Part shown: positions 7,919 through 32,319 of the stretch, one piece after another | How positions within the stretch are numbered: position 1 is the stretch's first letter | Layout of the letters: every line of letters starts with the position of its first letter | NCBI GenBank assembly: GCA_023382335.1 | Contig: JAMCPM010000006.1 | Coordinates: 70,372 to 134,371, forward strand | DNA: 64,000 bases | DNA from: Actinomycetota bacterium | Lineage (GTDB): Bacteria > Actinomycetota > Thermoleophilia > BMS3ABIN01 | Reading direction: 5' to 3' | Translations under genes and position numbers: made by a program | Notes under the pieces: generated by a model | Databases searched by the model: none | What the model was told of the DNA's origin: nothing | Seen by the model: the letters and a program-made list of their open reading frames with translations, nothing else

Positions 7919-9574
7919 TTAGTTAGAGTTTGTTGTGTCAGTACTTGCCAGGTGCTCGTCGCAATAACTATCATAATGTGAAAGATCGTAAACCTTTTTG
8001 TCTGAATCATAGTATCTAAGCTCGGCATTGTTAATCTTGCCGTTTCCCGCAATGACTACATATCGGAACCCATAGCTACAAAGTGCATCATAATTGCCTG
8101 CCTGAAAAGCTTTTTCGATCCCTTCATCTTGCCAAGCGACGCTGCCTGGTCTGCGTGAAATATAGCCGCCGAATATGGGATGGCCATGAATTAGTTGATA
8201 GTTCAACAGCTTATCGGTGGTATCATCAAAAACCGCGCCAGGAGGCATATTCTTTATCGCGTATGCATATGCTGGCTGCTCGGGAATGATCGGCCGCAAT
8301 GGCTGGGCCGGCATGTATTCGAAGACAACCAGCAATATGGTTGCACCAACAACCAGCCGTTTCTTTTTTATTTGGGAGTCCCATATACGCGCCAGCGACA
8401 TGGCGCTGATCATCGACGCGGCCAGGATGACCACGGCCATCATCCGGTTGGGCATGCCGCCAATATTGGCAATCGGCAGAACCGATTGTAGAAGCGAATA
8501 AGGTAAGGGGAGACTTATCTCATAATTCACGATATGTAAAATCGGCCCCAGGCTTAGCAAAAGAAAGAAGAAAAGGATAAAAAGCCACGCCGTGAAGAAA
8601 TCCTTGGCTGGCAACTTCTTGCGATTGATAATTGCAAAGATTATGAGACCCCAGACGCTGATCCCTATGAAACTTTGACCAAGGCCTTCCCCGAAGTGCA
8701 ACTGCTGGCTAAACCAGTCGTTCAGCGGGCCAGGAATTATAAAGCTTATCAGTTCGGTAGAAAAGACTTCCGGTATGTGTAAGTCGACGAAACCGCCTGC
8801 CTTAAAAGCACGCGACAATGCCAATAGAAAAGGGGAGATTGCGGCAACCGAAATTGTTAAGAAAATTCCGAACGAAACCAGATGTCTGATTGTAGCGAAG
8901 TACTCCGGCTTTTTCTTGATCATTACAGCAATCAGGAAAATGAATGCCAGCAGAGCGGCATAGAAAGCATAATATAGTTCTGAATAAAAAGTGAGGATGA
9001 GAAAGAGCGCAGCAATTGATGCAGTTGTGATACGTGGTCGTATTAGCATTTTGTGCCAGAAAAGCAAAAACAACGGTAGCCATTCGAGAGAAGTCAAGTT
9101 GATATGGCTGCCAAGGTGCAGAACCGAATATCCGGAAAAGGCATAGATAAAACCGGCCAGAATGCTCGGCCAGTAGTTCTCGCAAAAATAATAAGCAAGC
9201 AAAAAAGCGCTTAAGCCACTGGCGACTACTGATATAACCACAAGAATATTGTATGAAGTGAAGGGAGAGAAGAATGACTCTAAAAAAACCCCGGGAATTG
9301 AATTCACAAGACTTAAAGTATGCGCCAGCAACGAAGTCCCTTCCGGGAAATGAATCATTGAAGAAAAATACGGATTTTGCAGATTTACAATCGATTGGCG
9401 CACATGCCATATATTCCAGACGTTTTGCATGCCATCCACTTCGTCGCCGAAGAAGCGTGATGGAAGTTCCAGGATTGCAGGAAAAGAAAGAATACAAAAA
9501 CATGCGAAGTATACAAATGCGGGGAAAACGCCAAACTTAATAAAACGTGCCTTAGACAGCTTCGCTAGATTCAT
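7919..9574 (-). CDS. large polytopic membrane protein, GT-C-fold/YfhO-like (putative membrane glycosyltransferase), in AT-rich islet
   Basis: 551 aa with more than 10 predicted TM helices, an FGDEVDG acidic motif in the first extracytoplasmic loop, and a C-terminal soluble domain. Codon usage is strongly AT-biased, unlike the flanking genes. Confidence 0.6.
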   Translation of the reverse strand: MNLAKLSKARFIKFGVFPAFVYFACFCILSFPAILELPSRFFGDEVDGMQNVWNIWHVRQSIVNLQNPYFSSMIHFPEGTSLLAHTLSLVNSIPGVFLESFFSPFTSYNILVVISVVASGLSAFLLAYYFCENYWPSILAGFIYAFSGYSVLHLGSHINLTSLEWLPLFLLFWHKMLIRPRITTASIAALFLILTFYSELYYAFYAALLAFIFLIAVMIKKKPEYFATIRHLVSFGIFLTISVAAISPFLLALSRAFKAGGFVDLHIPEVFSTELISFIIPGPLNDWFSQQLHFGEGLGQSFIGISVWGLIIFAIINRKKLPAKDFFTAWLFILFFFLLLSLGPILHIVNYEISLPLPYSLLQSVLPIANIGGMPNRMMAVVILAASMISAMSLARIWDSQIKKKRLVVGATILLVVFEYMPAQPLRPIIPEQPAYAYAIKNMPPGAVFDDTTDKLLNYQLIHGHPIFGGYISRRPGSVAWQDEGIEKAFQAGNYDALCSYGFRYVVIAGNGKINNAELRYYDSDKKVYDLSHYDSYCDEHLASTDTTNSN

Positions 9575-9837: not shown

Positions 9838-10422
9838 CTATTCTCGTTCGATCGAATAGATTGGATGTAATTCATTCCAGCCATGCTCCGCATCCAAAAC
9901 ATAGTCGCCTAACACTTTGACACGATCTCCTGCTTTTGGTGTAAGAATTGGATAGGTAAAGCCCCTACACGCATCTTTTGCGTCCTCTTGCGTAATATTG
10001 TTCTGGCAAACCGGCTCGAGCACCAAATCGCCATGCTGACCGTCAACGTTCTTTTGGTTCAACATGCCTGAATACTGTGAGTCTAAAGTTAGACGGATGT
10101 GATAATCACCATCCGCTTCCTTCTTTACTGCTGCGACTGTCCCGGTGACCGTTTTGCAATTCTCAATCCTGTGAAGGCGTTGAGGGTTGTACACATGGTT
10201 CCAAAGACTTTCGTCGCACTCACTGGAACTGGGAGATGTTGCAGTGACTGACAATGGTGGTGTGATTGCGCCGGTCGTGGAAGCAAGTGGCGCCATACCC
10301 TGATCAGATTTAAGTGTCGAGGAGCCTGATTCAGCGCAGCCTATGATTAGAACAACAGCAAAAGGCAGAATTAGAAAGATTCTCCGGAAAGAAAGTAGGA
10401 ACACAATTCCGATCCTGGCCAA
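9838..10422 (-). CDS. hypothetical secreted lipoprotein (Cys-rich, unknown function), AT-rich islet
   Basis: N-terminal signal peptide with a lipobox (LIIGC), Ser/Thr-rich linker and several conserved Cys. No recognisable domain. Confidence 0.55.
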   Translation of the reverse strand: MARIGIVFLLSFRRIFLILPFAVVLIIGCAESGSSTLKSDQGMAPLASTTGAITPPLSVTATSPSSSECDESLWNHVYNPQRLHRIENCKTVTGTVAAVKKEADGDYHIRLTLDSQYSGMLNQKNVDGQHGDLVLEPVCQNNITQEDAKDACRGFTYPILTPKAGDRVKVLGDYVLDAEHGWNELHPIYSIERE

Positions 10423-10605: not shown

Positions 10606-12240
10606 CTAGAACCAGTGCCGCAGCCACCACTTCTCGAAAGCTACCTTGCCCCAGTGCGCGGGATGCGTCGGCGGGTATAACCGCACCGCCGGCTCGGGTT
10701 CCGCGTAGAAGTTGCCCGCGGCAAATCCGGCCTTGCCGCCGCCAAGCTCCAGCCAGCAGTAGCCGTGGCCCTCGAATGTCGCCTCCGGCGTCTTGCCTTC
10801 GATCTCGGCGACGATCCTGTCGGCTACGACCCCGGCTTCAGAGTGGGCGAAGACGCCCGCCATGGGAAGATTCTTGCCGTTCGCCAGCCGGATATTGTTG
10901 ACGTCGCCGATGGCGTATACGCCCTCGTGCTCGGTCTGAAGCGTATTCGCGTCTACATGTATCCACCCGGAGGAGCCGAGCAGGCCGGAGTAACCCACAA
11001 CCTCGGGCGCCCGGTGAGGAGGAACGGCCAGGAGCAGGTCGACCTCCTGGGGATCACCGCTGGATTGAGTGATGGTGTGGTCGCCGGGGCTTATCCACTC
11101 GAAGGTGAACAGCGGATGGTAGCCGATGCCGCGCTTCTTGAGCACTTTTGATATGGCGTCGCCCATCGCCGCTCCTGCTATGGGCATTGGCTGATGCTCG
11201 GGAGTATAGATATCAACCTTCGACCTTTCCCGCACACCCTTTTTCCGCAGGAAGGAATCCACCAGAAGCGCAGCTTCGTACGGCGCCGCCGGGCATTTGA
11301 AAGGCATGTCGGTGACAAGCACTCCGACCTTGCCGCCGGAAAAATCGTCCAGGGCGGCCTGTATCCTTGCCGTTCCTTCCAGGTCGTAGAGGTTGAGGGC
11401 CATCTCATCAAAACCCAACACTTCCTGCGGAGCCAGCTCCGCCCCCAGCGCCACTATCAGGAAGTCAAAATCGACTTCCTGCGACGGGGTTCTCACCAGC
11501 TTGCGGTCCATATCTATCTGCACCGCCGGCTCGTTGATGAACTCGACTCCCTTTTTAACCAGGTCCGACAGTGGACGCTGGATCTGCTCGGCGCTGCGCA
11601 GGCCGACCGCGCGCCAGAGCAGCGATGACTGGAAGAGGTGATTGGGTTCGCGGTCCATGACGATGATCCGATGGCCCTTGGGAAGCTTCTTGCGCAGGTG
11701 ATAGGCAGCCACCAGGCCGCCGGCCCCTCCACCGAGGATGAGGATGTTGGCGCCCCATGCCCGCCCGGAGCGCCGCGGTGCTGCCTGGGGCGCAGGCTTC
11801 GCTTCGCCCGGCGCCACCGGCTCCTCGTATATTTTTTCTACCGCGGCCGTGAAGCCGGCCTCGTTAAACTCGCTCTCCCACAAGATCACCTTGCCGTCGG
11901 GACCTACGAGAATAGAGTATGGCACCCAACCATTGCTGAGCTGCTTGAACAGCGTTCCGTCTTCGTCGGGGATAACGTCGAAAGGAAGACCGTACTCTTC
12001 CTTCCATTGATCGCAGGCTTCCTTCGTTTCATACGGGCCCACGTAAACGGCCGAGAATCCTTTGGAGGAGAAGCGCTCATACAGGCGCTTTACAGCGGGG
12101 GCCTCCCGCCTGCAACCCTGTCACTGCCCTTTCCAGAAAACGATGAGCAACCCCTTGTCGGGAGCAGGCAGACCCAGCTCCTGTAAAGCGATAGCCTGCC
12201 CTTCGGAAACGCCTTTTTGGCCTTCATCGATGACTTTCAT
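10606..12240 (-). CDS. candidate selenoprotein: TlpA/ResA-like thioredoxin domain (UxxC redox motif, TGA at 12121-12123) fused to sulfide:quinone oxidoreductase (SQR)-type flavoprotein
   Basis: ATG at 12240 with RBS AGGGGA. The frame reads MKVIDEGQKGVSEGQAIALQELGLPAPDKGLLIVFWKGQ-TGA-QGCRREAPAVKRLYERFSSKGFSAVYV.... This aligns to the TlpA/ResA motif FWASWCGPCRAEAP, with the TGA exactly at the first Cys. The frame then continues without interruption into the 478-aa ORF (GGGAGGLVAAYHL FAD-binding site, SQR catalytic Cys in FKCPAAPYE and GYCWLE). A stem-loop lies 6-31 nt downstream of the TGA (+ coordinates 12090-12115). Confidence 0.65.
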
Positions 12241-12291
12241 TCGATCCCCTTTCCGTAATGCCAGGTCGCGGTCCTGGCCATGAATTCGTGT

Positions 12292-12648
12292 TTAATGCTT
12301 CCTGTCCCCAGGGTATTTCCCCGTCTTCGTCACCGGGCAGCACGCCGGCGCTTCCAGGTCTCCCTCGTATAGTTTCCTTAAGAGTTTCAGGAGGTCCGGC
12401 ACGATCGGATCGACCAGGAAGTAGCAGCGCAGGCGGCCGTCCACGTAATAATCGATCAAGCCGTTCCTTCGGAGCATCCCCAGGTGCTGGGAGATATTCG
12501 GTTGACTTGCCTCCAGAAGCTCGTCAAAGTCGCTGACGCACCTGACGCCGTCCTCGAGCTGCTCGAGGATCTGGATCCTCAAAGGATGCCCCATTATCTT
12601 GAGCAGCTCGATCCGGTCGCGCTCGATATTTTTCGCTTTTGGTTTCAT
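12292..12648 (-). CDS. ArsR/SmtB-family HTH transcriptional regulator, SqrR/BigR-like (candidate persulfide sensor)
   Basis: HTH region HPLRIQILEQLEDGVRCVSDFDELLEASQPNISQHLGMLRRNGLI. Cys37 in helix alpha2 and C-terminal Cys103/104 (ACCPV) match the positions of the reactive Cys pair in SqrR/BigR. It sits directly upstream of the SQR-fusion gene on the same strand. Confidence 0.85.
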   Translation of the reverse strand: MKPKAKNIERDRIELLKIMGHPLRIQILEQLEDGVRCVSDFDELLEASQPNISQHLGMLRRNGLIDYYVDGRLRCYFLVDPIVPDLLKLLRKLYEGDLEAPACCPVTKTGKYPGDRKH

Positions 12649-12702: not shown

Positions 12703-12845
12703 CGTGTCAAGTCATGGATGCGCATCGTGGAATCGAAGCCCCGGCAAAAGGCCAAAGCCCCGGCCAAAGGCGATCCGGCCGGGGCGTAATTGGCAAGCTT
12801 GGGAGTAACTGACAAAGAAAGAAGAACAGGAAAAGCCCGGGGGGG

Positions 12846-13046
12846 CTATCCCTCCTCCTTGTCGTTCCATTGCCATTCTATATCTGCCCACCGCTCCCCT
12901 GAATCTTGCCGTGGCTCCCGAGAATCGTTCCTGACCGGCTCCTGCCTCTTCATCCTGGCGATAGAACCGGTAATGATGCAGATAACCGCGGTCATCACAT
13001 AGATGCCGATGGAAACCCCCGTGATCGGTAACATGGCCCCGTACAT
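12846..13046 (-). CDS. small membrane protein with LPxTG-like motif + TM + basic tail (paralog of 23831..23950)
   Basis: MYGAMLPITGVSIGIYVMTAVICIITGSIARMKRQEP.... A strong RBS (AGGGAAGGGG) precedes the ATG. It shares about half its residues with the mini-ORF at 23831. Confidence 0.45.
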   Translation of the reverse strand: MYGAMLPITGVSIGIYVMTAVICIITGSIARMKRQEPVRNDSREPRQDSGERWADIEWQWNDKEEG

Positions 13047-13168
13047 GATTACCCCTTCCCTCGAAACATTATCAATTTAGCTGTATCCGGAATATTCCAA
13101 TCCAAACTTCCCCGGACGATCCGGAGCCGGATAGGGTGGTAAATCCGAATATTGGGTATTAGAAAATC

Positions 13169-16426: not shown

Positions 16427-17089
16427 ATGAGACTTGGTTTCGTCGGACTGGGAAAGATGGGCGGCAACATTGTCCAGAGGCTGCTGGAAGATGGTCACGA
16501 GATCGTAGCCCATGACCCCGACGCGCAAGCACTGAAACCGGCCGCCGCACGGGGAGCAATAGCAGTGGGGAACCTGGAATCCCTGGCCGCAACTCTGCAA
16601 GCGCCGCGCCTGGTCTGGCTCATGGTCCCTTCCGGACACGTTGCCGGGCAGGCGATCGCCGGACTCCAGCCACATCTCGAATCCGGCGACGTCATCGTCG
16701 ATGGCGGCAATTCTTACTACCGGGAGGTCGAAGGCTATGCTGAAGGATTCGAGCTGCTCCATTCCAAAACTGAATTCGATCTCGACCTGAAACAGGTCTC
16801 GGAGCTATGGACGCACGGCAGCGTCATCAGGTCCTGGCTGCTGGACCTGGCGATACTGGCATTCGGGCAGGACCCCAGCCTGGAGTCCATCGAGGGTTAC
16901 GTCGACGACACCGGCGAGGGACGCTGGACCGCCATCGAGTCGATCGAGTCGGCGATCCCGGCCCCGGCGCTCGTCCTCTCGCTGCAGCAAAGGTTCCGAT
17001 CGCGTCAGCAGAGTTCCTTTGCCGCCAGATTCATCGCCGCCGAAAGACAGCAGTTCGGCGGCCACGCGGTGAGAAAAAAGGGGAGCTGA
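16427..17089 (+). CDS. 6-phosphogluconate dehydrogenase (YqeC-type, NAD-binding) homolog with in-frame internal deletion; probable pseudogene/remnant
   Basis: N-terminal Rossmann domain MRLGFVGLGKMGGNIVQRL...VIVDGGNSYY joins directly to the C-terminal ...AEGFELL...GSVIRSWLLDL segment. The central substrate and catalytic region (the VKMVHNGIEYG block, about 90-110 aa) is missing. Confidence 0.5.
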   Translation: MRLGFVGLGKMGGNIVQRLLEDGHEIVAHDPDAQALKPAAARGAIAVGNLESLAATLQAPRLVWLMVPSGHVAGQAIAGLQPHLESGDVIVDGGNSYYREVEGYAEGFELLHSKTEFDLDLKQVSELWTHGSVIRSWLLDLAILAFGQDPSLESIEGYVDDTGEGRWTAIESIESAIPAPALVLSLQQRFRSRQQSSFAARFIAAERQQFGGHAVRKKGS

Positions 17090-17094
17090 GCCTC

Positions 17095-19229: not shown

Positions 19230-21662
19230 TTACCTGATCAGCATGCCCGGCAGCTCGTCGAAGGAATTGTTGAAGGTGGTGCGCTGGCTAACCACCAGTT
19301 CTGGCTGGCCGCTGGTGCTGACAACCTGGACCGGACCGCTCATCACGCCGGGGAACAGTGGAGTCACGCGGCCACCCGCCGGAATCGAGTAGTGGCCGAT
19401 CAGACTGCCGCCGATCCTGATATCGACCTCGGCGGTAGACTGACTTTGGTTGCCGACCAGGATCCACGTGTGCATTCCTGCAGATGCACTGTCATACCAT
19501 GTGAACCATTGTTCGCTGGCAAGATCCTGGGTCTCGGTTCCGGATACCTCTGCGAAGGAACCTCTGAACACCGATCTCTGACCGACGATAAGCGGCTGGC
19601 TGTTTGAGCAGACGACCCGTACCGGCCCGTTCATCAGGCTGGGATATTCCGGGGTGATCCTGCCGCCGGCCGGTATCGAATAAACTCCGATGAGACGGTC
19701 AGCTACGTAAATCGCCACGTCGGCGGGCTGTGCTCCCTGGTTGCCGACCAGAACCCATGTCCTCATGCCGAGGCTCTGCTCGTCATACCAGGTGAAGTGA
19801 TATTCGGAGGTGAGTTGCGACGCCGCCTTACCGCCGACCTCGTTGAAGCTGCCGCTGTAGATAACCCTGTTGCTCACGTTCAGCGGCTGTCCGTTGGTCG
19901 AGACAACGCGAACCGGCCCATTCATGGTGCCGGGGAACTCAGGCAGAACAACACCGCCCGCAGGTATCACATAGTGACCCTTCACTTGACCGGCGACGTA
20001 CACATCGACCTGGGCCGCTTCATTGCCCTGGTTGCCGATGACAACCCAGTCCTTCATCCCTGCTGAGACTTCGTCGTACCACGTCAGGATCTGATCGCTG
20101 GAAAGATCGGCCTGGGCCACCGCCGGCAGTTCGGCAAATGTGCCGTTATAAGTCACACGCTCGCTGACCAGTAGATCGCCGCCGGTCGTCGACACCACTT
20201 TCACCGGACCGGCTGAAAGGCCGGCATAGAAAGGAGTCGCCCTTTGCTTCGGCGCGATGTCATAGCTTCCCCGCAAGACTCCGCCGATATATACCTCGGC
20301 ATGCTGCGTCACATCGCCCGGATTGCCAAGGATCACCCATGTTCTCATGGAAGCGCTGTCATACCATCCGAAATAGTAGTTGAGATCGCTGCTATTATCG
20401 ACGTTCACTGGCACTGTTGACGTAGTTACCAGGCCGGCCTGGTCATAAGCCTTGGCAATCAGACTGTAAGGGCCGTTGGCAAGATTCCTCGAGTTGAAGC
20501 TAAAATTAAACGGACCCGCAGCGCTGGTTCCCATCAGAGTGTCGCCGACATACAGCTCCACCTTCGAAAGGGCGACGTTATCCGAGGCGTTCACGGCGAC
20601 CTGGGCGGTGCCATTCAACGTTGCTCCCGATACCGGAGAATTAATAGCGACCGTGGGCGGCGTGGTGTCCGGAGGAGCTACCGCTGCCCGAAACGCGTTC
20701 AGGCTGGCCTCGGAACTATTGATCCTCCAGTCGGTCTCTTTGTTTATGTCGAACCATGTGAGCATGGCGATCCGCGGGAACCTTGTCGGAAGACTGCTGA
20801 ACGCATCTGTTATCCACTTGGCTTTGCCGCCGTTTTGTGAGTTGCCGCCGACTTCCGTTGTCGCGGTCTCGCTGATAACTACCGGCTTGCTGGTGTTGGC
20901 CACAGCGACGTCATAACTGGGGCCGATTACCTGTTCGAAGCTCTGCCAGGTAGAGGTCCATTCCGGAGTGTTGTACATCGTCCCCCAGTTGTATCCATCG
21001 ATTCCGACGTAGTCCACATAATTATCGCCGGGATAGTAGGTGTCAAAAGTAGCCTGCGCGTCTGCGGTGGATCCGTCACGGTTGGGTGACCAGACCCACT
21101 TCACATTGGTCGCGCCTTCCTGGACGAAAATATCGTGCACGTGCCTCCATGCGGGAATGTAATCCTGGGGCGAATTGCCGTTGGCCGTGCCGCTCCAGGT
21201 TACCCAGTTACCGTTCATCTCGCACATCGGACGGAAGTAAACCGGATAACCGAAATCCTTCAATTGCCGGGCCCAGCGCCTGATGTCATTGTCAAAATTG
21301 CCAGCTGTGATATTTATTAGCCGGTAAGCCGGCTGGTTGGTCGGGTCGAGGGAGAAGTCGTGCGGCTCCCAGGCCAACTGGATCGTGCGTCCTTCGGCAG
21401 CCATGGGCCGGAAGGCGTCCGCGTAGAAATCTTCGCTGATGGATTCGTACCAGAGAAATACGTCGGTCTGCCGTCCGATCGTTGTCTCCAGATTGTGCAG
21501 ATCGTCAACTGAGGGAAGCTGCTCGTTCGGTAACTGGGGATCAGGGAAGAAGACTCCGACCTGGACCGGTTGAGATGTTGCCCAAGCCGTGCCAACGCCC
21601 GCACCAGCGAACAGAACAGCAAACAGGGAAAAAACGATTATTGCAACTGCAAGACGAAACAC
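19230..21662 (-). CDS. secreted GH26-like (beta-mannanase-type) glycoside hydrolase with Ig-like domain and four tandem ~95-aa C-terminal repeats
   Basis: Signal peptide FRLAVAIIVFSLFAVLFAGAGVGTAWA (GTG start at 21662 after GAGGAGG). Catalytic motifs FRPMCEMNGNW and VVISETATT. Then PTVAINSPVSGA..., an Ig-like domain. Then four repeats of the pattern FTWYD..S.GM.TWVLVGNQG...V.IY..G...G.Y.IPAGGR.TP.FP..MNGPVRVVS.NGQPL.VS.R. Confidence 0.7.
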   Translation of the reverse strand: MFRLAVAIIVFSLFAVLFAGAGVGTAWATSQPVQVGVFFPDPQLPNEQLPSVDDLHNLETTIGRQTDVFLWYESISEDFYADAFRPMAAEGRTIQLAWEPHDFSLDPTNQPAYRLINITAGNFDNDIRRWARQLKDFGYPVYFRPMCEMNGNWVTWSGTANGNSPQDYIPAWRHVHDIFVQEGATNVKWVWSPNRDGSTADAQATFDTYYPGDNYVDYVGIDGYNWGTMYNTPEWTSTWQSFEQVIGPSYDVAVANTSKPVVISETATTEVGGNSQNGGKAKWITDAFSSLPTRFPRIAMLTWFDINKETDWRINSSEASLNAFRAAVAPPDTTPPTVAINSPVSGATLNGTAQVAVNASDNVALSKVELYVGDTLMGTSAAGPFNFSFNSRNLANGPYSLIAKAYDQAGLVTTSTVPVNVDNSSDLNYYFGWYDSASMRTWVILGNPGDVTQHAEVYIGGVLRGSYDIAPKQRATPFYAGLSAGPVKVVSTTGGDLLVSERVTYNGTFAELPAVAQADLSSDQILTWYDEVSAGMKDWVVIGNQGNEAAQVDVYVAGQVKGHYVIPAGGVVLPEFPGTMNGPVRVVSTNGQPLNVSNRVIYSGSFNEVGGKAASQLTSEYHFTWYDEQSLGMRTWVLVGNQGAQPADVAIYVADRLIGVYSIPAGGRITPEYPSLMNGPVRVVCSNSQPLIVGQRSVFRGSFAEVSGTETQDLASEQWFTWYDSASAGMHTWILVGNQSQSTAEVDIRIGGSLIGHYSIPAGGRVTPLFPGVMSGPVQVVSTSGQPELVVSQRTTFNNSFDELPGMLIR

Positions 21663-22050
21663 GAGCCAAGCCTCCTCGGCGGCAGCCAGGCTGTTATAGT
21701 CACAAGACCTTAGACCCTTGGCTTTGCGCCACTCAGTTTCCTGAGCTTTGCCCTTATCACCTGGACTTGGCCTCTCCCCCACCAACCACGTACCAGAGCG
21801 CGGCTACACTAATAGCCACTATTTGTATCGACCCACGCGTGTAGATGTTTGAATTCCGACCGATGGGAAAGGCATTAAATGAAGCAAAACACCGGATTAC
21901 CAGCAGGGGTAATCGGGTAGGAATAAGGGATGTTATTGTTTGAAAAGAGCTCGTCTTTGTGCAATTATTACGATGGACCTAACCGCGGACAGTTAGTATT
22001 GTGGGCGCTCGAGTTGACGCGGGGGGAGGCGGGAAGGTTGATCCCCAGCC

Positions 22051-23697
22051 TTGAAAAAACTTAAAACAATGACAATTTTCGGGACCAGGCCCGAGGTAAT
22101 CAAGCTGGCCCCGGTCATAAGTGAGCTGGAAACGTCACCAAACTTCGAACCAGTTTTGGTGACAACTGGGCAACACCGTGAGATGCTAGGTCAAGCCCTC
22201 GACCAGTTTGGCATAATCCCCGATTACAACCTCGACATCATGCAGCCCGACCAGGGCGTAAGCGATGTCATCATCAGTTCCCTCCGCGGAGTCGAAGAGC
22301 TTATCTCGACTGAAAAACCGGACCTCGTCCTGGTCCAGGGGGACACCACCACCGCCTTCGCCGGCTGTCTGGCCGCATTCTATCAACAAACCGCTGTCGG
22401 CCACATAGAAGCAGGCCTGCGAACCTACGATAAATACAAGCCCTTCCCTGAGGAAATCAACCGCTCCATGATCACACAGTTGGCGGACATCCATTTCGTC
22501 CCCACGGTTACCGCCTGGGAGAGCCTCAGAAACGAAGGTGTCGATGCGGAAAAGATCTTTATCACCGGGAACACCGTGATTGACGCTTTGTTCCAGGTAG
22601 TCCAGCCGGATTACAACTTCTCCAATGCGGCTCTGGACGGCATAGGCAGCGAAGCCGGGCGTCTGATAGTCGTCACTTCGCACCGCCGGGAGAATTTCGG
22701 CCAGCCGCTTCTCGACATCTGCTCAGGGTTAATGGAGATAATCGACCGTTTCGACGATGTCGAGATCGTTTTTTCCGTCCACCGCAACCCCAAGGTCCGT
22801 GTGCCGGTTCAGGCGCTGCTTGGAGACAAGGAACGGATACATCTGGTGGAGCCTCTCGACTATATGGATATGGCCAACCTGCTGGCCCGATGTTTTCTGG
22901 TGATGACGGATTCCGGCGGACTGCAGGAGGAAGCTCCCGCTCTTGCCAAACCCGTTCTGGTCCTCAGGGAGGTAACAGAACGACCTGAGGCCGTACAGTC
23001 GGGTCAGGCAAAAATTGTTGGCACCTCGAAGCATGCCATCATAAGCGTCGCATCAGATCTACTCTTCAATGACGCCAGCTATGTTGCCATGACACATGGT
23101 GTAAGCCCGTATGGAGATGGAAAAGCAGCTTCCAGAATCATAAGCGCCATCGAATACGTCAATGGTATGCGCGAGAACAAGCCGGCACCGTTCATGAGCA
23201 GGCTCATCAGTCCGCTCAGCGGCGATCAGTTCGTGGCTGAGAAGCCGGTCAGCGATACCCTTTTCTACAACCAGTTGGACGAGCGCATCCGGCGCGCCAA
23301 AAGGGCGCGGCAACGCGTCTCGGTTGCCACGATAGATATGCGGGAGATCAGCAAACAGCAGTTCGCTGAAGCTTTCAGAACCATTACACGCAGCCTGAGG
23401 AAAACCGACACGGCGGCGGCGCTCGACGGTAGGCGAATGGTTCTCGTCCTTCCCGGAGCCAATAACGATCAGGCAAAAACTACAACAAGCCGGCTCCTCG
23501 GCAATCTTGCCGCCCCTTCTCTGGGCCGTCGCGAAGAAGACCGGGCCGCGCGTTTGTCCGCGGACCAGGTCCAGGATCTGATCAAAGCCGTAAATGTGAA
23601 TATCAAGACCTTCGACGAAGACGACGGTGCAGATATACCGGTTGCGGCCGAAACAGAGAATGAAGGTTATTCCAAGGCGGAAGAGGTGCCCGGATGA
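22051..23697 (+). CDS. UDP-N-acetylglucosamine 2-epimerase (non-hydrolysing, MnaA/WecB-like) with ~170-aa C-terminal degenerate GGDEF-like extension
   Basis: TTG start gives MKKLKTMTIFGTRPEVIKLAPV, which matches the MnaA N-terminus. A full epimerase domain runs to about residue 370. The tail (...DMREISKQQFAEAFRTITRSLRKTDTAAALDGRRMVLVLPGANNDQAKTTTSRLL) resembles a GGDEF domain with GGDEF replaced by DGRRM. Confidence 0.85.
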   Translation: MKKLKTMTIFGTRPEVIKLAPVISELETSPNFEPVLVTTGQHREMLGQALDQFGIIPDYNLDIMQPDQGVSDVIISSLRGVEELISTEKPDLVLVQGDTTTAFAGCLAAFYQQTAVGHIEAGLRTYDKYKPFPEEINRSMITQLADIHFVPTVTAWESLRNEGVDAEKIFITGNTVIDALFQVVQPDYNFSNAALDGIGSEAGRLIVVTSHRRENFGQPLLDICSGLMEIIDRFDDVEIVFSVHRNPKVRVPVQALLGDKERIHLVEPLDYMDMANLLARCFLVMTDSGGLQEEAPALAKPVLVLREVTERPEAVQSGQAKIVGTSKHAIISVASDLLFNDASYVAMTHGVSPYGDGKAASRIISAIEYVNGMRENKPAPFMSRLISPLSGDQFVAEKPVSDTLFYNQLDERIRRAKRARQRVSVATIDMREISKQQFAEAFRTITRSLRKTDTAAALDGRRMVLVLPGANNDQAKTTTSRLLGNLAAPSLGRREEDRAARLSADQVQDLIKAVNVNIKTFDEDDGADIPVAAETENEGYSKAEEVPG

Positions 23698-23830
23698 GCA
23701 ATATCACACCGGGATTCCGTCTCGGGACGCAGGACGCGGGTATTATCATAGTGGAGGGTTTTCCCGGACGGGCCGTGGGAGAAATCCGTCAGGCACCCAG
23801 GGGAATTATAGAAACGAGGGGGTGTAGGAC

Positions 23831-23950
23831 ATGTATGGAGTATTGCTACCAGTAACAGGCGTTGCGATCGGACTCTATGCCCTCGTTGCAGTTACAGCCG
23901 TAATCGTGGGTTCGCTAATGCGGATGAGGGGTAAGAAGACTGAACGGTGA
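23831..23950 (+). CDS. 39-aa membrane peptide with LPxTG-like motif + TM + basic tail (paralog of 12846..13046)
   Basis: Not in the ORF track because it is under 60 aa. ATG at 23831 is preceded by GAGGGGG. Translation MYGVLLPVTGVAIGLYALVAVTAVIVGSLMRMRGKKTER. An 8-bp hairpin follows (23951-23983). Confidence 0.4.
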   Translation: MYGVLLPVTGVAIGLYALVAVTAVIVGSLMRMRGKKTER

Positions 23951-24050: not shown

Positions 24051-26900
24051 ATGAATCCATCCCAAATATTTAGTTGGTTGAGAGTAACGCTACTTTTTGT
24101 AGGGTTACTCTTTTTATTGTCTTCTATCCCGATCGCGACCGCGGCTGGCGAAGCAATCGCACCGGAAAATCCGGCGTCAGCAGCTGCGGCTCCGGCCGGC
24201 CCCAAAGTACTGATCGTTCACGACCAGATCGACGACCCACAACTCGGGCAGGAACTAGCGGCGCTGCTGGGCCACTTCTCAGCCCAAAGCACGATTGTCG
24301 AGCAGCAGTTCTATGAAGCGGCCAGTCTGCAGAACTATGACATTATCTTCTATATGGGAGGTTCCCACCGGGAGATCAATCCAGACTTTCTGAAAGACGT
24401 CTCCACAACCGGCAAGACCGTCGTCTGGATGGGTCGCGGACTCGACTGGCTGGGGAACGTCTATCCTCTGAAAAATCTGGGTTTCGAGTATGCCCGGGTC
24501 GACGGTTCGGGAGCTTTCAATACCGTAACCTACGACAACACCCAGCTTGCAAGAACCAACCCTGTAACCAACGTCACTTATGTTACCGACGAATCCCGCG
24601 CTGAAGTGCCCGCATGGACCGAAGGAGATGGCGACCGGGCACCCTATGTCATTCACAGCGGTAGCTTCTGGTATTTCGCTGACATTCCGATGGTCGGAAC
24701 TGACGCCAATAGTGTCTACTCCGCTGTCGGCGCTACTGAAGACAGTGCCTACCTCGTCCTGGCGGATCTGCTTCACGACATCACCGGTCAGGACCACCCT
24801 TCACAACACGCGGCGCTGGTCCGCATCGAGGACATGCATCCCAACTCCGACGTCAACCGTCTGAACTCAGTCGTCGATTACCTCTACCACAAGCAGGTCC
24901 CCTTCGGCATCGCCCTGGTTCCGGTATACAAGAATCCGGCAACCGGCGAGCAAGTCCACCTGAGCGACCGCCCTGAATTTGTAGCCGCGATCAAGGACGC
25001 CGAGGCAAAGGGCGCTGTAATCGTGATGCACGGATATACCCATCAGCTAAACGGGGAGACGGTGGTCGATTACGAGTTCTGGGACGGGCAGACCCACGCC
25101 CCGCCTGCCAACGAAACCCCGGAATCGGTTAGCGCCAGGGTCGAGGCCGGCCTCAGGGAAACCGCGGCGGTAGGCATCTATCCGCAGATTTGGGAAACGC
25201 CCCACTATGCCGCATCCGACATGGCTCACAGCGTCATCTCACGCTATTTCAATGTAGTCTGGGAGCGAAGTGACGCTCCCTTCTTCCCCTATCTGGTAAC
25301 TCTGCCAAAAACCGGCCAGACCGACCTGCCCGAAACGTTGGGCTATGTGAACCCGACTGAAGGCTTTCCCGGTCAGGGCCATTCTGCTGACACGCTGGTC
25401 AGTGTCGCCGGCCAGCAGAAAGTAGTCAGGGACGGAACCGCCGCCTTCTTCTTCCATCCGATGGTAGACGGCAGCCAGTTACGAAAGACGGTCGAAGGGC
25501 TGCAGGATGAAGGTTTCACATTCGTCTCGCCCTTACAGATGGCCGGGCTGCCCTATACACCACCCGACCCGCCATCCTGGTTTTCGAATGCCCTATGGCA
25601 TATTGACAACCAGGTAGGCAGCCTGACGCCGGACGGCACCCTGGATACCAAGGTAATAACGCTCATCGCCTTTTTTATCATCTTCTACTATTGGGGAATG
25701 TTCCTGCTGTCACGGAAGCCCGCGCCTGTCACCGACCCGCCGGATGACAAGCTGCGCTTCGTCATCGTTGTTCCCTGTCTGAATGAAGAGCTGGTCATCG
25801 GCAGGACGCTCGACCATCTATTGGCATTGCCAAACCCGAATCTCAGCATCCTTGTAGTCGACGACAATTCCGATGACCGCACGCGGGAGATAGCGATGTC
25901 TTATCCGCGCGAGCGCGTTACCGTGATAGATCACCCGCCGAAAATAGCAAGACAGGGAAAGGGACGTGTGCTGAACTACGCTTTCCGGTCGCTCATGCAC
26001 GTGGCCTCCATGGAAAATCGTCGTACGGACAAAATCGTCCTGGGAGTAATCGACGCCGACGGCCGCGTCGAGAAAAATGTGATCGATTCCGTCAATCCAT
26101 ATTTCACCAATCCTAAGACTGGAGCCGTTCAGGTCGGAGTCAGAATTTCCAATGCCAATACCAACACGCTGACCAAGTGGCAAAATTTCGAATTCCTCAC
26201 CTTCGCGCGCATCTCGCAAAAGGCCAGAGAGCACCTCGGCAGCGTCGGTCTGGGCGGCAACGGCCAGTTCGTCCGCCTTTCGGCGCTTGCATCTCTGGGG
26301 GACGATCCCTGGACCGACTGCCTGACGGAAGATCTCGATCTCGGCATCCGGCTGATGCTGAAGGGATGGAATAACCGCTACTGCCCGGACAGCTTTGTCT
26401 CCCAGCAGGGAGTTCCCAAGATGAGGCCGCTGGTGCGGCAACGCACGCGCTGGTTCCAGGGTCACATTACCTGTTGGCGTCACATCCCCTCGCTACTGGC
26501 AGGCAAGACGTCGACCATGGCTCGGACAGATACTATTTATTATCTGCTGGCGCCCATCCTGGTATTCATGTTCCTGCCCAGTTCAATACTGTTCATATTC
26601 TGGTCGATATATTTTCTTGTGTCCGGCGCCTCAACAGTTGTGCTCTCGCCCCTCAGCTACATTCCAGTGCTGGTCGTCTGGTATCTATTCTCCTTTGGAG
26701 CCCTGCCGACGGTCGTCTGGACTTTTTGGCGTGAGGAAAAAGAGATCAGCGCCTGGAAGGCGTTCCTATGGGCCCATGTTTTTTCATTCTTTTACGTGAT
26801 CTGGTTTGTTGCAGGCTGCATCGCGGTGTATCGACTCGCCCGGGGACAGGGATCCTGGGCCAAGACTGCCAGGACTGAGGAATCGTTTCCAGCTCATTAA
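24051..26900 (+). CDS. bifunctional polysaccharide deacetylase-like (DUF2334/NodB-type) / family-2 processive glycosyltransferase (exopolysaccharide synthase, PNAG/cellulose-synthase-like)
   Basis: N-terminal signal/TM segment. ...VRIEDMHPNSD...VIVMHGYTHQ is DUF2334 deacetylase-like. A TM segment follows, then the GT2 domain (VIVVPCLNEE, VVDDNSDD, IDADG) and the processive QRTRWFQG (QxxRW) motif, plus C-terminal TM helices. Confidence 0.8.
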   Translation: MNPSQIFSWLRVTLLFVGLLFLLSSIPIATAAGEAIAPENPASAAAAPAGPKVLIVHDQIDDPQLGQELAALLGHFSAQSTIVEQQFYEAASLQNYDIIFYMGGSHREINPDFLKDVSTTGKTVVWMGRGLDWLGNVYPLKNLGFEYARVDGSGAFNTVTYDNTQLARTNPVTNVTYVTDESRAEVPAWTEGDGDRAPYVIHSGSFWYFADIPMVGTDANSVYSAVGATEDSAYLVLADLLHDITGQDHPSQHAALVRIEDMHPNSDVNRLNSVVDYLYHKQVPFGIALVPVYKNPATGEQVHLSDRPEFVAAIKDAEAKGAVIVMHGYTHQLNGETVVDYEFWDGQTHAPPANETPESVSARVEAGLRETAAVGIYPQIWETPHYAASDMAHSVISRYFNVVWERSDAPFFPYLVTLPKTGQTDLPETLGYVNPTEGFPGQGHSADTLVSVAGQQKVVRDGTAAFFFHPMVDGSQLRKTVEGLQDEGFTFVSPLQMAGLPYTPPDPPSWFSNALWHIDNQVGSLTPDGTLDTKVITLIAFFIIFYYWGMFLLSRKPAPVTDPPDDKLRFVIVVPCLNEELVIGRTLDHLLALPNPNLSILVVDDNSDDRTREIAMSYPRERVTVIDHPPKIARQGKGRVLNYAFRSLMHVASMENRRTDKIVLGVIDADGRVEKNVIDSVNPYFTNPKTGAVQVGVRISNANTNTLTKWQNFEFLTFARISQKAREHLGSVGLGGNGQFVRLSALASLGDDPWTDCLTEDLDLGIRLMLKGWNNRYCPDSFVSQQGVPKMRPLVRQRTRWFQGHITCWRHIPSLLAGKTSTMARTDTIYYLLAPILVFMFLPSSILFIFWSIYFLVSGASTVVLSPLSYIPVLVVWYLFSFGALPTVVWTFWREEKEISAWKAFLWAHVFSFFYVIWFVAGCIAVYRLARGQGSWAKTARTEESFPAH

Positions 26901-31391: not shown

Positions 31392-31773
31392 CGTATAAAG
31401 GTCCCTTAATCGTTAATATAAATCAATCAATCGGTCAAGACAAACAAAGGAGTTTTGATAAACAAAATGCTAAAGCTATTTTGCACTCTTCCGATAAGGG
31501 TTTTCGAACGCATCATATACGAAAAGGCAAACCCGCCGCGAGGCGGGGACGCAAAGCCAGGGGTCTCACGAAGACAGCCCAGCCGCCGAAGCTTTTGAAC
31601 GCAAGCTCTTAGGTTTTGGTCCTGGGCTTTATTACGGCCTATGGCGAGCATAGCTCAATCGCTTTGGCATTTCCAAGGTCGTTGAGCTTTTTTGTTGGAT
31701 GCGACGGGCACTAGGGATGAGGTCAGTCAATCTTCCTCGGCGGGAGGAAGGCAACAGCGAAAGGGGGTACCAG

Positions 31774-32319
31774 GTGATATTTTCAGCAAAGATAACCGCT
31801 CTAGCCGCGATATCGTTGATTTTGGTCCTGGTTCTTGCATCAGCCGTGTACGGAAAAACAAATTCCGACCCGGTAACCGTCAGTGCAACAGTCGATAATT
31901 TTATCTCCATCAGCCATCCCGGAAGCGTATCCCTGGGAACAATCCTGGGAACAGGCGGGTCTTCGGAAAACAGCGCCACCTGGAATGTGGCCACCAATAA
32001 CGCACTGGGATACACTCTGAATATTTCGGCCGCCGGTTCGCCGGCGATGAACAAGGGCGCCGATTCGTTCACAGACTACAGCGGCCCGGCTGTGTGGTCC
32101 ATAGCCGCAACCGATTCAGCTTTCGGTTTCAGCGTCAATGATAATGCACACTATCAGGGTTTCACCACACCCGGAACGCCTGTCCAGATTGTAAACTCCC
32201 CAAATCCGACCTCAGGACAGGATACCGCAATATTCTTCAAGGCTGAAGTTGGCGCCAGCCATCTGCAGCCCAGCGGCAGCTACGCCGCCAGTCTGACAGT
32301 TACAGCCACGACCCTGTGA
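31774..32319 (+). CDS. small secreted beta-rich protein (putative surface fibre/adhesin subunit), first gene of surface-protein cluster
   Basis: GTG at 31774 is preceded by AAAGGGGG. Signal peptide MIFSAKITALAAISLILVLVLASAVYG, and a Ser/Thr/Asn-rich mature region of about 155 aa with alternating beta-strand patterns. The ATG-started 31699 ORF has no RBS. Confidence 0.55.
   Translation: MIFSAKITALAAISLILVLVLASAVYGKTNSDPVTVSATVDNFISISHPGSVSLGTILGTGGSSENSATWNVATNNALGYTLNISAAGSPAMNKGADSFTDYSGPAVWSIAATDSAFGFSVNDNAHYQGFTTPGTPVQIVNSPNPTSGQDTAIFFKAEVGASHLQPSGSYAASLTVTATTL

What the first reader, a model, noticed from the sequence alone, without database searches (positions are those of the whole stretch)
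12846..13046. Paralogous mini-ORFs encoding an N-terminal LPxTG-like motif, one TM helix and a basic tail
Two small genes, each with a strong RBS, encode MYGAMLPITGVSIGIYVMTAVICIITGSIARMKRQEP... (66 aa, 12846-13046, minus strand) and MYGVLLPVTGVAIGLYALVAVTAVIVGSLMRMRGKKTER (39 aa, 23831-23950, plus strand). About half their residues are identical, including MYG, LPxTG, GxxIGxY, AV, GS and RM. The arrangement LPxTG, then a hydrophobic helix, then a Lys/Arg tail, is exactly a sortase cell-wall sorting signal. Here it stands alone with only a 5-residue N-terminus. By the positive-inside rule the LPxTG would sit on the outer face of the membrane. These may be a new family of small membrane peptides, for example sortase decoys or regulators, or lipid II-linked peptides. 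Alternatively the motif match is coincidental and they are simply a conserved small-protein family.
Basis: seen in the sequence. Interest (0 to 1): 0.6.

Follow-up and report, generated by a model that had tools for sequence, protein, structure and literature searches.

The report
LPxTG mini-protein of an exopolysaccharide synthase
The two tiny genes are real and belong to an undescribed family of single-helix membrane peptides that always sits beside a sugar-polymer (exopolysaccharide) synthase and deacetylase module; their invariant LPxTG motif looks exactly like a sortase signal, but whether sortase ever cuts it remains untested.

Summary
Both mini-ORFs exist exactly as described (13046..12846 minus, 66 aa; 23831..23950 plus, 39 aa), are 50% identical (E 3e-14) and have strong Shine-Dalgarno sites. 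The 39-aa form is a real gene under purifying selection (pN/pS 0.15). It belongs to an unannotated family of 67 protein clusters in three clades. LPxTG is present in 66 of 67 (one IPVTG), and G+4, a later G, A, Y, A and an Arg are also nearly invariant. The family is not free-standing. Everywhere it lies in a module of a GT2 processive synthase, a UDP-GlcNAc 2-epimerase and a YdaL/DUF2334 deacetylase-like protein, usually directly upstream of, and translationally coupled to, the last. In the window's clade the deacetylase and synthase are fused, the epimerase carries a degenerate GGDEF domain with an RxxD I-site, and a c-di-GMP-I riboswitch controls the divergent GH26 gene. Best reading: a dedicated single-pass membrane subunit of a YdaLM/Pss/MatB-like exopolysaccharide machine. 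The sortase reading is neither confirmed nor excluded: no sortase in 313 kb examined, below-threshold scores on LPXTG-anchor models, strict Pro where actinobacterial class E sortases prefer Ala. The 66-aa copy is an orphan paralogue seen only in this genome.

The parts
23831..23950 (+). Mini-ORF B: 39-aa single-pass membrane peptide (MYGVL-LPVTG-TM-RMRGKKTER), the conserved family member
   Evidence: Orthologues and synteny. Purifying selection. Helix model.
23816..23824 (+). Shine-Dalgarno (GAGGGGGTG) of mini-ORF B, 6 nt before the ATG; GGAGGTG-like in all orthologues
12846..13046 (-). Mini-ORF A: 66-aa paralogue that keeps every family-invariant residue (L6 P7 T9 G10 G14 Y16 G27 R31) and adds an acidic, Trp-containing C-terminal tail; seen only in this genome
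   Evidence: pN 0.24-0.34 against pS 0.60-0.91 versus B-type genes.
13051..13062 (-). Shine-Dalgarno-like GAGGGAAGGGGT of mini-ORF A
12757..12785 (-). 12-bp GC-rich hairpin about 60 nt after the stop of mini-ORF A, followed by a U-containing tract; terminator-like, which makes A a monocistronic unit
   Evidence: z -2.3. ArsR downstream has its own 11/12 promoter match.
22051..23697 (+). UDP-GlcNAc 2-epimerase (WecB) fused to a degenerate GGDEF domain that keeps RxxD five residues before a [DE]G[KR]x[LM] pseudo-active site; no TM helix; gene immediately upstream of mini-ORF B
24051..26900 (+). YdaL/DUF2334 deacetylase-like ectodomain fused through a TM helix to a processive GT2 synthase (DD, DxD, TED, QRTRW motifs; 3-4 C-terminal TMs); gene immediately downstream of mini-ORF B. 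The NCBI-deposited protein is 927 aa, so the true start may be about 22 codons later.
19230..21677 (-). Membrane-anchored GH26 + Big_7 glycoside hydrolase, divergent from the operon. The ORF as listed runs to 21785, but that stretch holds the riboswitch.
21678..21762 (-). c-di-GMP-I riboswitch aptamer (RF01051) in the GH26 leader, conserved in all six orthologous loci scanned that carry GH26
21940..21968 (+). Sigma-70-like promoter match (TTGAAA-17-AATTAT, TG extended) upstream of the epimerase / mini-ORF B / synthase operon; a consensus match only

Best explanation
Mini-ORF B encodes a dedicated single-pass membrane subunit (N-terminus out, basic tail in) of a synthase-dependent exopolysaccharide machine. 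The machine is built from a UDP-GlcNAc 2-epimerase, a processive GT2 synthase and an extracytoplasmic YdaL/DUF2334 N-deacetylase-like protein. Shown: it is a real, strongly selected protein. It co-occurs with these three genes in every locus where the neighbourhood can be read. In distant clades it is translationally coupled to a secreted YdaL protein that has no membrane anchor of its own. In the window's clade the machine is under c-di-GMP control. Inferred: the peptide's TM helix packs against the machine through its invariant small residues (G-x-A-x-G-x-Y ... A ... G). The exofacial LPxTG cap is a protein-protein contact that holds or positions the YdaL ectodomain at the membrane next to the synthase, the kind of job IcaD or PgaD do for PNAG synthases. 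In the window's clade it may also help bring the TM-less epimerase-GGDEF* c-di-GMP receptor to the membrane. Mini-ORF A is a recent, diverged, separately transcribed paralogue with an added acidic cytoplasmic tail, probably a variant or modulating subunit.
For: Real gene: pN/pS 0.15, and third-position variation in 32/33 columns; SD in every orthologue. Family: 67 clusters (12; 68 hits, one borderline hit excluded), found in searches of 1.84 and 5.8 billion proteins. Linkage: the order epimerase > mini > DUF2334-GT2 is kept in L002-L004, L006, L007 and L009-L012. In distant clades the mini lies directly upstream of stand-alone DUF2334 proteins, with ATGA overlaps or 1-7 nt gaps (the ATGA overlap in L015 is with a GT2 gene), and GT2 and epimerase are in the same cluster in four different gene orders. 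Those stand-alone YdaL proteins have a signal peptide but no TM, whereas YdaL homologues in other lineages carry their own C-terminal TM plus basic tail. The short-N-terminus clade goes with the fused, already tethered YdaL-GT2; the long-N-terminus clades go with unfused YdaL. The TM helix has invariant G5, G9 and G22 and near-invariant A7, Y11, A15 and R26, beyond what a generic hydrophobic anchor needs. Partner identity: the AF2 model (pLDDT 84) matches the NDST1 N-deacetylase, PelA and CE4 deacetylases, and JGI names the homologues 'YdaL'. System precedent: ydaLMN are essential for EPS, and the degenerate-GGDEF receptor YdaK must be membrane-bound (PMC5422440, PMC13274460); PssE in Listeria (PMC4125290); the MatB CE4-TM-GT2 fusion with MatA proposed as an IcaD-like helper (PMC5972031). 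c-di-GMP control: riboswitch and RxxD-GGDEF*.
Against: No physical interaction was tested, and the tools cannot model a complex. The peptide persists in the clade where YdaL is already tethered by fusion, so anchoring cannot be its only role. In L001 it persists with the epimerase although the synthase/YdaL gene and GH26 are absent. In L015 and L017 the immediate neighbour is a GT2 or a lipoprotein-like ORF and not YdaL. The helical-face clustering of conservation is only suggestive (7% of shuffles reach it). A pure packing role does not obviously explain why the exact sortase pentapeptide pattern, with a free x position, is invariant across three clades. The clade/fusion correlation is phylogenetically confounded, since each state is essentially one clade. 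Paralogue A sits outside any polysaccharide locus.
Confidence: 0.5

Rival explanations
1. The LPxTG is a genuine sortase site. The peptide is an almost cargo-less sortase substrate, inserted N-out and cut between T and G. Either the short N-terminal fragment is transferred to lipid II, the wall, or an amine on the de-N-acetylated polysaccharide, or the released G-TM-tail remnant acts in the membrane. This would couple polysaccharide production to the wall-sorting pathway.
For: L, P, T and G are invariant and x is free in 66/67 clusters across three clades. The length from L to the C-terminus (30-38 aa), the roughly 20-residue hydrophobic stretch and the +3 tail match a cell-wall sorting signal; a sorting-signal regex hit the mini-proteins in 20 of the 25 loci and nothing else in 313 kb. 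Near-threshold score on TIGR01167 (11.6 against 15.9 bits) and faint, recurrent similarity to NCBIfam 'LAXTG motif-containing small protein' show that such tiny sorting-signal-like proteins have a curated precedent. Named members of the family come only from Actinomycetota-type MAGs, although YdaL itself is also widespread in Proteobacteria. The partner is a deacetylase-like enzyme that would create free sugar amines.
Against: No sortase gene or TLxTC signature in the window or in 25 loci. All curated anchor models score below cutoff. The main clade has no signal peptide or passenger: 5 residues precede the motif. Position 2 is Pro in 67/67, whereas the class E sortases typical of soil and freshwater Actinobacteria prefer LAXTG and discriminate against Pro (PMC5148588). 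The TM segment carries invariant residues, unexpected for a leaving group. No YdaL homologue carries a sorting signal. Paralogue A has a 27-residue acidic extension after the basic cluster.
Confidence: 0.2
2. BcsF-like tether: the peptide's main job is to recruit the soluble epimerase-GGDEF* c-di-GMP receptor to the membrane synthase through its basic cytoplasmic tail.
For: The epimerase-GGDEF* has no TM helix and keeps an RxxD I-site. YdaK loses function when its TM helices are removed (PMC5422440). The mini-gene follows the epimerase gene directly in the window's clade and in L016, L020/L021 and L023/L024. L001 keeps only epimerase-GGDEF* plus the mini. E. coli BcsF, which recruits the GGDEF-like BcsE, is recalled from memory as a functional analogue.
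Against: In the distant clades the epimerase has no GGDEF domain, yet the mini-protein is kept. In L018/L019 and L022 the epimerase is on the opposite strand or several genes away, while the mini stays coupled to YdaL. The most conserved residues are exofacial or in the membrane; apart from R26 the cytoplasmic tail is variable.
Confidence: 0.12
3. Not a functional protein of the machine: a regulatory leader peptide or uORF controlling synthase translation, a type I toxin-like hydrophobic peptide, or chance ORFs.
For: Very small size. B appears only from the Logan assemblies, not under an NCBI name, so it seems unannotated in the deposited genome. Hairpins follow the ORF in some loci, including a terminator-like one in L007. 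Paralogue A stands alone with its own terminator.
Against: Amino-acid sequence, not RNA structure, is what is conserved. The intergenic hairpins are not conserved or significant (z -0.2 to -1.0). The family keeps its residues over three clades and several gene orders, including positions downstream of the GT2. No Rfam element overlaps either ORF.
Confidence: 0.04

Closest known systems
Sortase cell-wall sorting signal (LPXTG anchor domain, TIGR01167 / Pfam Gram_pos_anchor)
   Same: LPxTG with a free x, immediately followed by about 20 hydrophobic residues and a Lys/Arg tail; the length from L to the C-terminus is typical; predicted exofacial position of the motif.
   Different: It is the whole protein, not the C-terminal end of a secreted protein; there is no signal peptide or passenger in the main clade. 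It scores below the models' cutoffs. The TM segment has invariant residues. It is always encoded in a polysaccharide-synthesis module. No sortase has been seen nearby.
NCBIfam NF058583 'LAXTG motif-containing small protein' (LAXTG_small_WW)
   Same: A curated family of roughly 54-aa proteins that consist of little more than a short N-terminus, a sortase-like motif, a TM helix and a tail. Several distant members give faint hits to it (10-18 bits).
   Different: Scores are far below the 65-bit cutoff. The motif is LPxTG, never LAxTG. I could not see that family's members or context, so homology is unproven.
IcaD / PgaD (small membrane partners of the PNAG synthases IcaA / PgaC) and Streptomyces MatA
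   Same: A small membrane protein encoded next to a processive GT2 synthase and a polysaccharide deacetylase (icaA-icaD-icaB order; compare GT2-epimerase-mini-YdaL). Proposed helper of polymerisation or assembly (PMC5972031).
   Different: No sequence similarity was detected (no Pfam hit). One TM helix instead of two (the two-TM topology of IcaD/PgaD is recalled from memory). The tightest coupling is to the deacetylase-like gene, not to the GT2. The LPxTG cap has no counterpart.
Bacillus subtilis YdaJKLMN and Listeria PssABCDE c-di-GMP-dependent exopolysaccharide systems (locus level)
   Same: A YdaL-family DUF2334 protein, a YdaM/PssC-type GT2 synthase, a degenerate GGDEF receptor with an RxxD I-site, and an associated glycoside hydrolase. 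An epimerase able to supply UDP-ManNAc fits the ManNAc-based Pss polymer (as quoted in PMC5422440).
   Different: Here YdaL and the GT2 are fused. The GGDEF* domain is fused to the epimerase and has no TM helices. The hydrolase is GH26 under a c-di-GMP-I riboswitch. No YdaN/BcsB-like gene was seen. An LPxTG mini-protein is not described for Yda or Pss in the papers read.
Streptomyces MatB
   Same: An extracellular deacetylase domain joined by one TM helix to an intracellular GT2 synthase domain, in an actinobacterium (PMC5972031).
   Different: MatB's ectodomain is a canonical CE4. Here it is a GATase-like domain plus a DUF2334 barrel resembling NDST1 and PelA. MatA is not reported as an LPxTG peptide.
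E. coli BcsF (recalled from memory, not tested here)
   Same: A single-pass peptide of about 60 aa with a basic cytoplasmic tail in a synthase-dependent EPS operon, which recruits a GGDEF-like c-di-GMP-binding protein (BcsE) to the membrane.
   Different: No sequence similarity was found. The mini-protein is kept in loci whose epimerase lacks any GGDEF domain.

Membership tests
Sortase substrate / LPXTG cell-wall sorting signal | LPXTG pentapeptide | tested here: met
   LPVTG in B and LPITG in A; 66/67 family clusters, with one IPVTG.
Sortase substrate / LPXTG cell-wall sorting signal | Hydrophobic segment then a positively charged tail at the extreme C-terminus | tested here: met
   B: 20 hydrophobic residues then RMRGKKTER; mean family tail charge +3. 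Not met by A, whose basic cluster is followed by 27 mostly acidic residues.
Sortase substrate / LPXTG cell-wall sorting signal | N-terminal signal peptide and a passenger domain to be displayed | tested here: not met
   Only 5 residues precede the motif in the window's clade; 17-42 weakly hydrophobic residues in the other clades, with no recognisable domain.
Sortase substrate / LPXTG cell-wall sorting signal | Score at or above the curated cutoff of the anchor HMMs (TIGR01167, Pfam Gram_pos_anchor) | tested here: not met
   No hit for A or B at E <= 0.1. Best family member 11.6 bits against a 15.9 cutoff.
Sortase substrate / LPXTG cell-wall sorting signal | A sortase encoded in the same genome | not testable with these tools
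   None among the 38 window ORFs scanned against Pfam, none in the precomputed Pfam lists of the related loci, and no TLxTC signature in 313 kb. Whole genomes could not be fetched.
Sortase substrate / LPXTG cell-wall sorting signal | Cleavage between T and G and transfer to lipid II or peptidoglycan | not testable with these tools
   Requires peptidomics or an in vitro sortase assay.
NCBIfam NF058583 LAXTG motif-containing small protein | HMM score >= 65 bits and an LAXTG motif | tested here: not met
   9.8-18.1 bits for seven of the eight members tested; no hit for P0024, or for A or B at E <= 0.1. Position 2 is Pro in 67/67.
IcaD / PgaD / BcsF-type small subunits of synthase-dependent EPS systems | Small membrane protein encoded within the synthase operon | tested here: met
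   Conserved adjacency to GT2 / YdaL / epimerase in more than 20 loci.
IcaD / PgaD / BcsF-type small subunits of synthase-dependent EPS systems | Sequence homology to one of those families | tested here: not met
   No Pfam or NCBIfam family at E <= 0.1 for A or B.
IcaD / PgaD / BcsF-type small subunits of synthase-dependent EPS systems | Physical association with the synthase complex and requirement for its activity | not testable with these tools
   Needs genetics or biochemistry, or multimer modelling; the structure tool returns no interface information.
YdaJKLMN / PssABCDE-type c-di-GMP-dependent EPS locus (for the surrounding genes) | YdaL-family (DUF2334) protein plus a YdaM/PssC-type processive GT2 | tested here: met
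   DUF2334 E 4.5e-48 and GT2 families; D, DxD, TED and QxxRW motifs; homologues named YdaL by JGI; deacetylase fold.
YdaJKLMN / PssABCDE-type c-di-GMP-dependent EPS locus (for the surrounding genes) | Degenerate GGDEF receptor with an RxxD I-site | tested here: met
   R-[KE]-[TS]-D, then 5 residues, then [DE]G[KR]x[LM], conserved in 10 orthologues; sub-threshold GGDEF Pfam hit. c-di-GMP binding itself was not tested.
YdaJKLMN / PssABCDE-type c-di-GMP-dependent EPS locus (for the surrounding genes) | YdaN / PssD (BcsB-like) subunit | tested here: not met
   No such gene between GH26 and sigma-70 in the window or its orthologous loci.

The most novel reading that the evidence does not exclude
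The peptide is a bona fide, essentially cargo-less sortase substrate built into an exopolysaccharide machine. Sortase would cut LPxT|G at the outer membrane face and join the short hydrophobic N-terminal fragment to an amine. That amine could be lipid II or, more radically, the free amino sugars produced by the adjacent YdaL N-deacetylase, giving a peptide-capped or wall-linked polysaccharide. The conserved G-TM-tail remnant would stay with the synthase. This would be a new use of sortase chemistry and a new way of attaching or terminating a bacterial exopolysaccharide.
Probability: 0.12. Interest if true: 0.85.

Novelty: new variant of a known kind. Interest (0 to 1): 0.55.

Why it matters
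Small membrane proteins are routinely missed; mini-ORF B appears to be absent from the deposited annotation of this genome. Here one turns out to be a constant fourth component of a widespread but poorly understood exopolysaccharide module, made of a YdaL-type deacetylase, a GT2 synthase and a UDP-GlcNAc 2-epimerase. The Bacillus (ydaJKLMN) and Listeria (pss) relatives of that module drive c-di-GMP-dependent aggregation and surface adhesion. The family gives a concrete, mutable handle (four invariant exofacial residues and a glycine-studded helix) for asking how the extracytoplasmic modifying enzyme is held next to the synthase in single-membrane bacteria. If the LPxTG is really used by a sortase, it would link two major Gram-positive surface-assembly pathways that are not known to be connected. 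The locus also documents a new domain fusion (epimerase + I-site-only GGDEF) and riboswitch control of the matching hydrolase.

Tried and rejected
- **Family libraries:** Pfam and NCBIfam scans of both peptides found no family.
- the 39-aa peptide, alone or as first row of an alignment, was below the tool's minimum; solved by reordering the alignments.
- **Metagenome scans:** The clade-2 alignment matched 192 stretches but no relative. The clade-3 alignment gave only two short contigs.
- **Literature:** 'XrtP' returned only unrelated papers. 'DUF2334 + glycosyltransferase' returned one irrelevant paper. 'LAXTG small protein' returned nothing on such a family.
- **XrtP lead:** the best NCBIfam hit of the GT2 is 'XrtP-associated glycosyltransferase', at 272 bits against a 520 cutoff. 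It could not be followed, and no exosortase-like gene was seen.
- **Leader-peptide / attenuator idea:** rejected. The hairpins after the ORF are neither significant nor conserved, and selection acts on the amino acids.
- **Split-off sorting signal of YdaL:** not supported. None of 120 YdaL homologues carries LPxTG, and none contains the mini-protein core motif.
- **One conserved helical face:** only suggestive, with 1467 of 20000 shuffles reaching the observed moment.
- **c-di-GMP riboswitches in distant-clade loci:** none found, so c-di-GMP control is shown only for the window's clade.
- **Complex modelling:** a linker-fusion model of mini + synthase was considered and dropped. The tool rejects non-native sequences and reports no interface measures.
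Full report
**1.

Each has a purine-rich Shine-Dalgarno 4-6 nt upstream. They are 49% identical over the 39 aligned residues (18/36 by BLASTP, E 3e-14) and are the only MYG..LPxTG copies in the window. Each has one hydrophobic stretch followed by a basic cluster. An AlphaFold model of B, built with the family alignment, is a single helix spanning residues 5-38 (pLDDT 86). In A the basic cluster is followed by a 27-residue acidic, Trp-containing tail.

**2. B is a real gene under strong selection**

A profile of A and B recovered 12 clusters from 5.8 billion proteins. A scan of species-representative genomes found six MAGs labelled Actinomycetes, Thermoleophilia or Gaiellales. The window itself matches an 'Actinobacteria bacterium' MAG (locus tag M1455_01950 for A). 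B is listed only from Logan assemblies, so it seems not to be annotated in the deposited record.

Across ten B-type genes, pS is 0.71 and pN is 0.11. Codon position 3 varies in 32 of 33 columns and position 2 in 6. All orthologues keep a GGAGGTG-like SD. This excludes chance ORFs and argues against a purely RNA-level or leader-peptide role.

**3. The family is wider, and LPxTG is its most conserved feature**

An HMM search of 1.84 billion representatives, followed by a second search with a divergent alignment, gives 67 clusters in three clades:

- Clade 1: MYG.LLPVTG, 37-42 aa.
- Clade 2: ...IPTAVLGA.V..LPATG..., 54-79 aa.
- Clade 3: MSGVNPGIIIGGAAVGTGV..KKAA.ALLPFTG..., 60-62 aa.

Counting from the L of the motif, L1, P2, T4, G5, G9 and G22 are invariant among the 66 LPxTG members. 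One cluster has IPVTG. A7, Y11 and A15 are 94-97% conserved and R26 is 85%. Position x3 is F, V, A, I or S.

Because the hits were recruited with a profile in which these columns weigh heavily, part of this invariance comes from how the hits were ascertained. An LAxTG variant of clade 1 would still have been found easily, and none was.

The TM conservation shows helical periodicity (maximum near 103 degrees per residue), but only at the 7% level in shuffles. I treat it as suggestive. The alternating G-x-A-x-G-x-Y puts small residues on two faces of the helix, which is typical of tightly packed helices (inference).

**4. The context is the key result**

In the window, B lies between two genes:

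- A UDP-GlcNAc 2-epimerase fused to a degenerate GGDEF domain (22051-23697).
- A 949-aa protein (24051-26900). Its N-terminal half is DUF2334. Its C-terminal half is a GT2 with the DD, DxD, TED and QRTRW motifs of processive synthases, flanked by TM helices.

A membrane-anchored GH26 diverges upstream (19230-21677), and rpoD follows.

This order is kept in L002-L004, L006, L007 and L009-L012. In the distant clades the DUF2334 protein (540-577 aa) and the GT2 (418-446 aa) are separate genes, and the epimerase has no GGDEF domain. The mini-gene nevertheless still lies directly upstream of the DUF2334 gene, with ATGA overlaps in L022 and L023 or gaps of 1-7 nt. GT2 and epimerase lie in the same cluster in four different arrangements.

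Exceptions:

- L015: mini overlapping a 348-aa GT2.
- L017: GT2 > mini > a lipoprotein-like ORF.
- L001: epimerase-GGDEF* > mini, with the synthase and GH26 absent.

No sortase domain appears in any of these neighbourhoods or among the 38 window ORFs scanned against Pfam. A TLxTC scan of all 313 kb held found nothing credible. The only sorting-signal-like C-termini in that sequence are the mini-proteins themselves.

**5. What the partners are**

- **YdaL identity.** Homologues of the ectodomain are named 'uncharacterized protein YdaL', 'DUF2334 domain-containing' or 'polysaccharide deacetylase family' by their sources. They are widespread, also in Proteobacteria. The fused form is confined to actinobacterial MAGs.
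- **Fold.** A confident model (pLDDT 84, pTM 0.81) consists of a GATase-like alpha/beta domain and a deacetylase barrel. Its best matches are the heparan-sulfate N-deacetylase NDST1, the Pel-modifying PelA and CE4 deacetylases.
- **Anchoring.** The stand-alone YdaL proteins next to mini-genes have a signal peptide and no TM helix. Some YdaL homologues elsewhere end in their own TM helix plus basic tail, and none has LPxTG.
- **c-di-GMP receptor.** The epimerase's C-terminal domain keeps RxxD exactly five residues before a degenerate [DE]G[KR]x[LM] in all ten orthologues. [quoted passage not shown]
- **Riboswitch.** A full-length c-di-GMP-I riboswitch sits in the GH26 leader (21762..21678, 72.5 bits). 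It is conserved in all six orthologous loci scanned that have GH26. None was found in the distant-clade loci.

**6. Interpretation**

The locus is an actinobacterial relative of two systems: the c-di-GMP-dependent YdaJKLMN/PssABCDE exopolysaccharide systems (PMC5422440, PMC13274460, PMC4125290), and the MatB-type deacetylase-TM-GT2 fusion (PMC5972031). The epimerase suggests a ManNAc-containing, partly de-N-acetylated polymer (inference).

The mini-protein is a constant fourth component. I favour a non-covalent single-pass subunit. Translational coupling to an otherwise unanchored secreted YdaL points to a stoichiometric partner that supplies a membrane anchor in trans. So do the presence of built-in TM anchors in other YdaL lineages and the loss of the N-terminal extension in the clade where YdaL is fused to the synthase. 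The conserved helix points to packing within the synthase complex.

It cannot be only an anchor, because it persists after the fusion and in L001. A secondary role in bringing the TM-less epimerase-GGDEF* to the membrane is possible in the window's clade, by analogy with the membrane requirement of YdaK and, from memory, with BcsF-BcsE.

**7. The sortase question stays open**

*For:* the conservation pattern is exactly that of a sortase site, and the geometry is that of a sorting signal. NCBIfam has curated a family of 'LAXTG motif-containing small proteins', which several members resemble faintly.

*Against:*

- No sortase nearby.
- Sub-threshold model scores.
- No passenger domain.
- Invariant residues in the supposed leaving group.
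- Strict Pro at position 2, where the class E sortases of soil and freshwater Actinobacteria prefer Ala (PMC5148588).

Whether these genomes encode any sortase could not be tested. I put the sortase reading at about 0.2, and the more radical peptide-to-polysaccharide ligation version at about 0.1.

**8. Paralogue A**

A keeps every invariant family residue and shows pN well below pS against B-type genes. It has its own SD and is followed by a strong hairpin. The downstream ArsR gene has its own promoter match. A lies in a roughly 12-kb stretch (SQR-like, ArsR, pentose-phosphate genes) that is absent between the Na/Ca exchanger and the EPS cluster in L001, L008 and L010. No second A-type sequence exists in the 5.8-billion-protein collection. 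It is best seen as a recent, lineage-specific duplicate with a new cytoplasmic tail. Its function is unknown; a variant or competing subunit is my guess.

**9. Verdict**

The sortase-based functions are unproven, and the family's true setting, an exopolysaccharide synthase/deacetylase module, was missed.

Novelty: a new family, and a new variant of the known kind 'small membrane accessory subunit of a synthase-dependent polysaccharide system', with an unexplained sortase-like cap.

Noticed in passing
window 21678-21762 (-); also L002 3234-3318, L007 7832-7917, L009 2172-2256, L010 7874-7958, L011 4153-4240, L012 7960-8044: Full-length c-di-GMP-I riboswitch (RF01051, 72-80 bits) in the leader of the membrane-anchored GH26 gene, conserved in all six orthologous loci scanned that have GH26. 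The ORF list's TTG start at 21785 therefore over-extends the GH26 gene.
   Followed up: yes
window 31517-31591 (+); also L001 13057-13132, L007 17579-17653, L009 11905-11979, L011 14089-14167, L012 17621-17698: A second c-di-GMP riboswitch (GGC variant, RF03167, 65-73 bits) downstream of lgt. It lies upstream of two ORFs without any Pfam family (31699-32319, 206 aa; 32491-33897, 468 aa), which are candidates for further c-di-GMP-controlled surface functions.
   Followed up: partly
window 22051-23697 (+): Unusual fusion of a complete WecB-type UDP-GlcNAc 2-epimerase with a degenerate GGDEF domain that keeps only the RxxD I-site. This implies c-di-GMP control at the level of precursor supply, or of recruiting the epimerase to the synthase.
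   Followed up: partly
L001 8121-8650: One relative has lost both GH26 and the YdaL-GT2 gene, leaving 530 nt of non-coding DNA before rpoD. It keeps an intact epimerase-GGDEF* and mini-ORF. L008 also lacks GH26 upstream.
   Followed up: partly
L007 about 10160-10205: A terminator-like hairpin followed by UUUUUU lies between the mini-ORF and the synthase gene in the closest species-level relative, but not in the window. It may set mini-to-synthase stoichiometry there.
   Followed up: no
window 10606-12648 (-): ArsR/BigR-like regulator plus a type III sulfide:quinone reductase-like flavoprotein (NCBIfam selenoprotein-subtype model, 235 bits, below cutoff) directly downstream of mini-ORF A; a sulfide-detoxification pair.
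   Followed up: no
window 16427-18633 (+): The 6-phosphogluconate dehydrogenase-like ORF is only 220 aa and skips about 50 positions of the Pfam model. It overlaps the listed start of the G6PD ORF, whose domain begins only at residue 129. Either the gene starts are mis-set or the 6PGD is shortened.
   Followed up: no
window 34185-37610 (-): 1141-aa protein with CBM96, disaggregatase-related repeats and purple-acid-phosphatase N-domains, conserved next to the same region in L001; another probable surface-polysaccharide-acting protein.
   Followed up: no
window 7919-9574 (-) and 9838-10422 (-): Two sizeable ORFs (551 and 194 aa) with no Pfam family. They lie within the roughly 12-kb stretch that is missing between the Na/Ca exchanger/tRNA and the EPS cluster in L001, L008 and L010.
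   Followed up: no
P0013 (3711 aa) and P0021 (886 aa): Large repeat proteins in which a motif resembling the mini-protein core (LLPTTGWSLGLYA...) recurs up to 28 times. This is probably an unrelated beta-rich repeat, and shows that the short profile can pick up non-homologous matches.
   Followed up: partly
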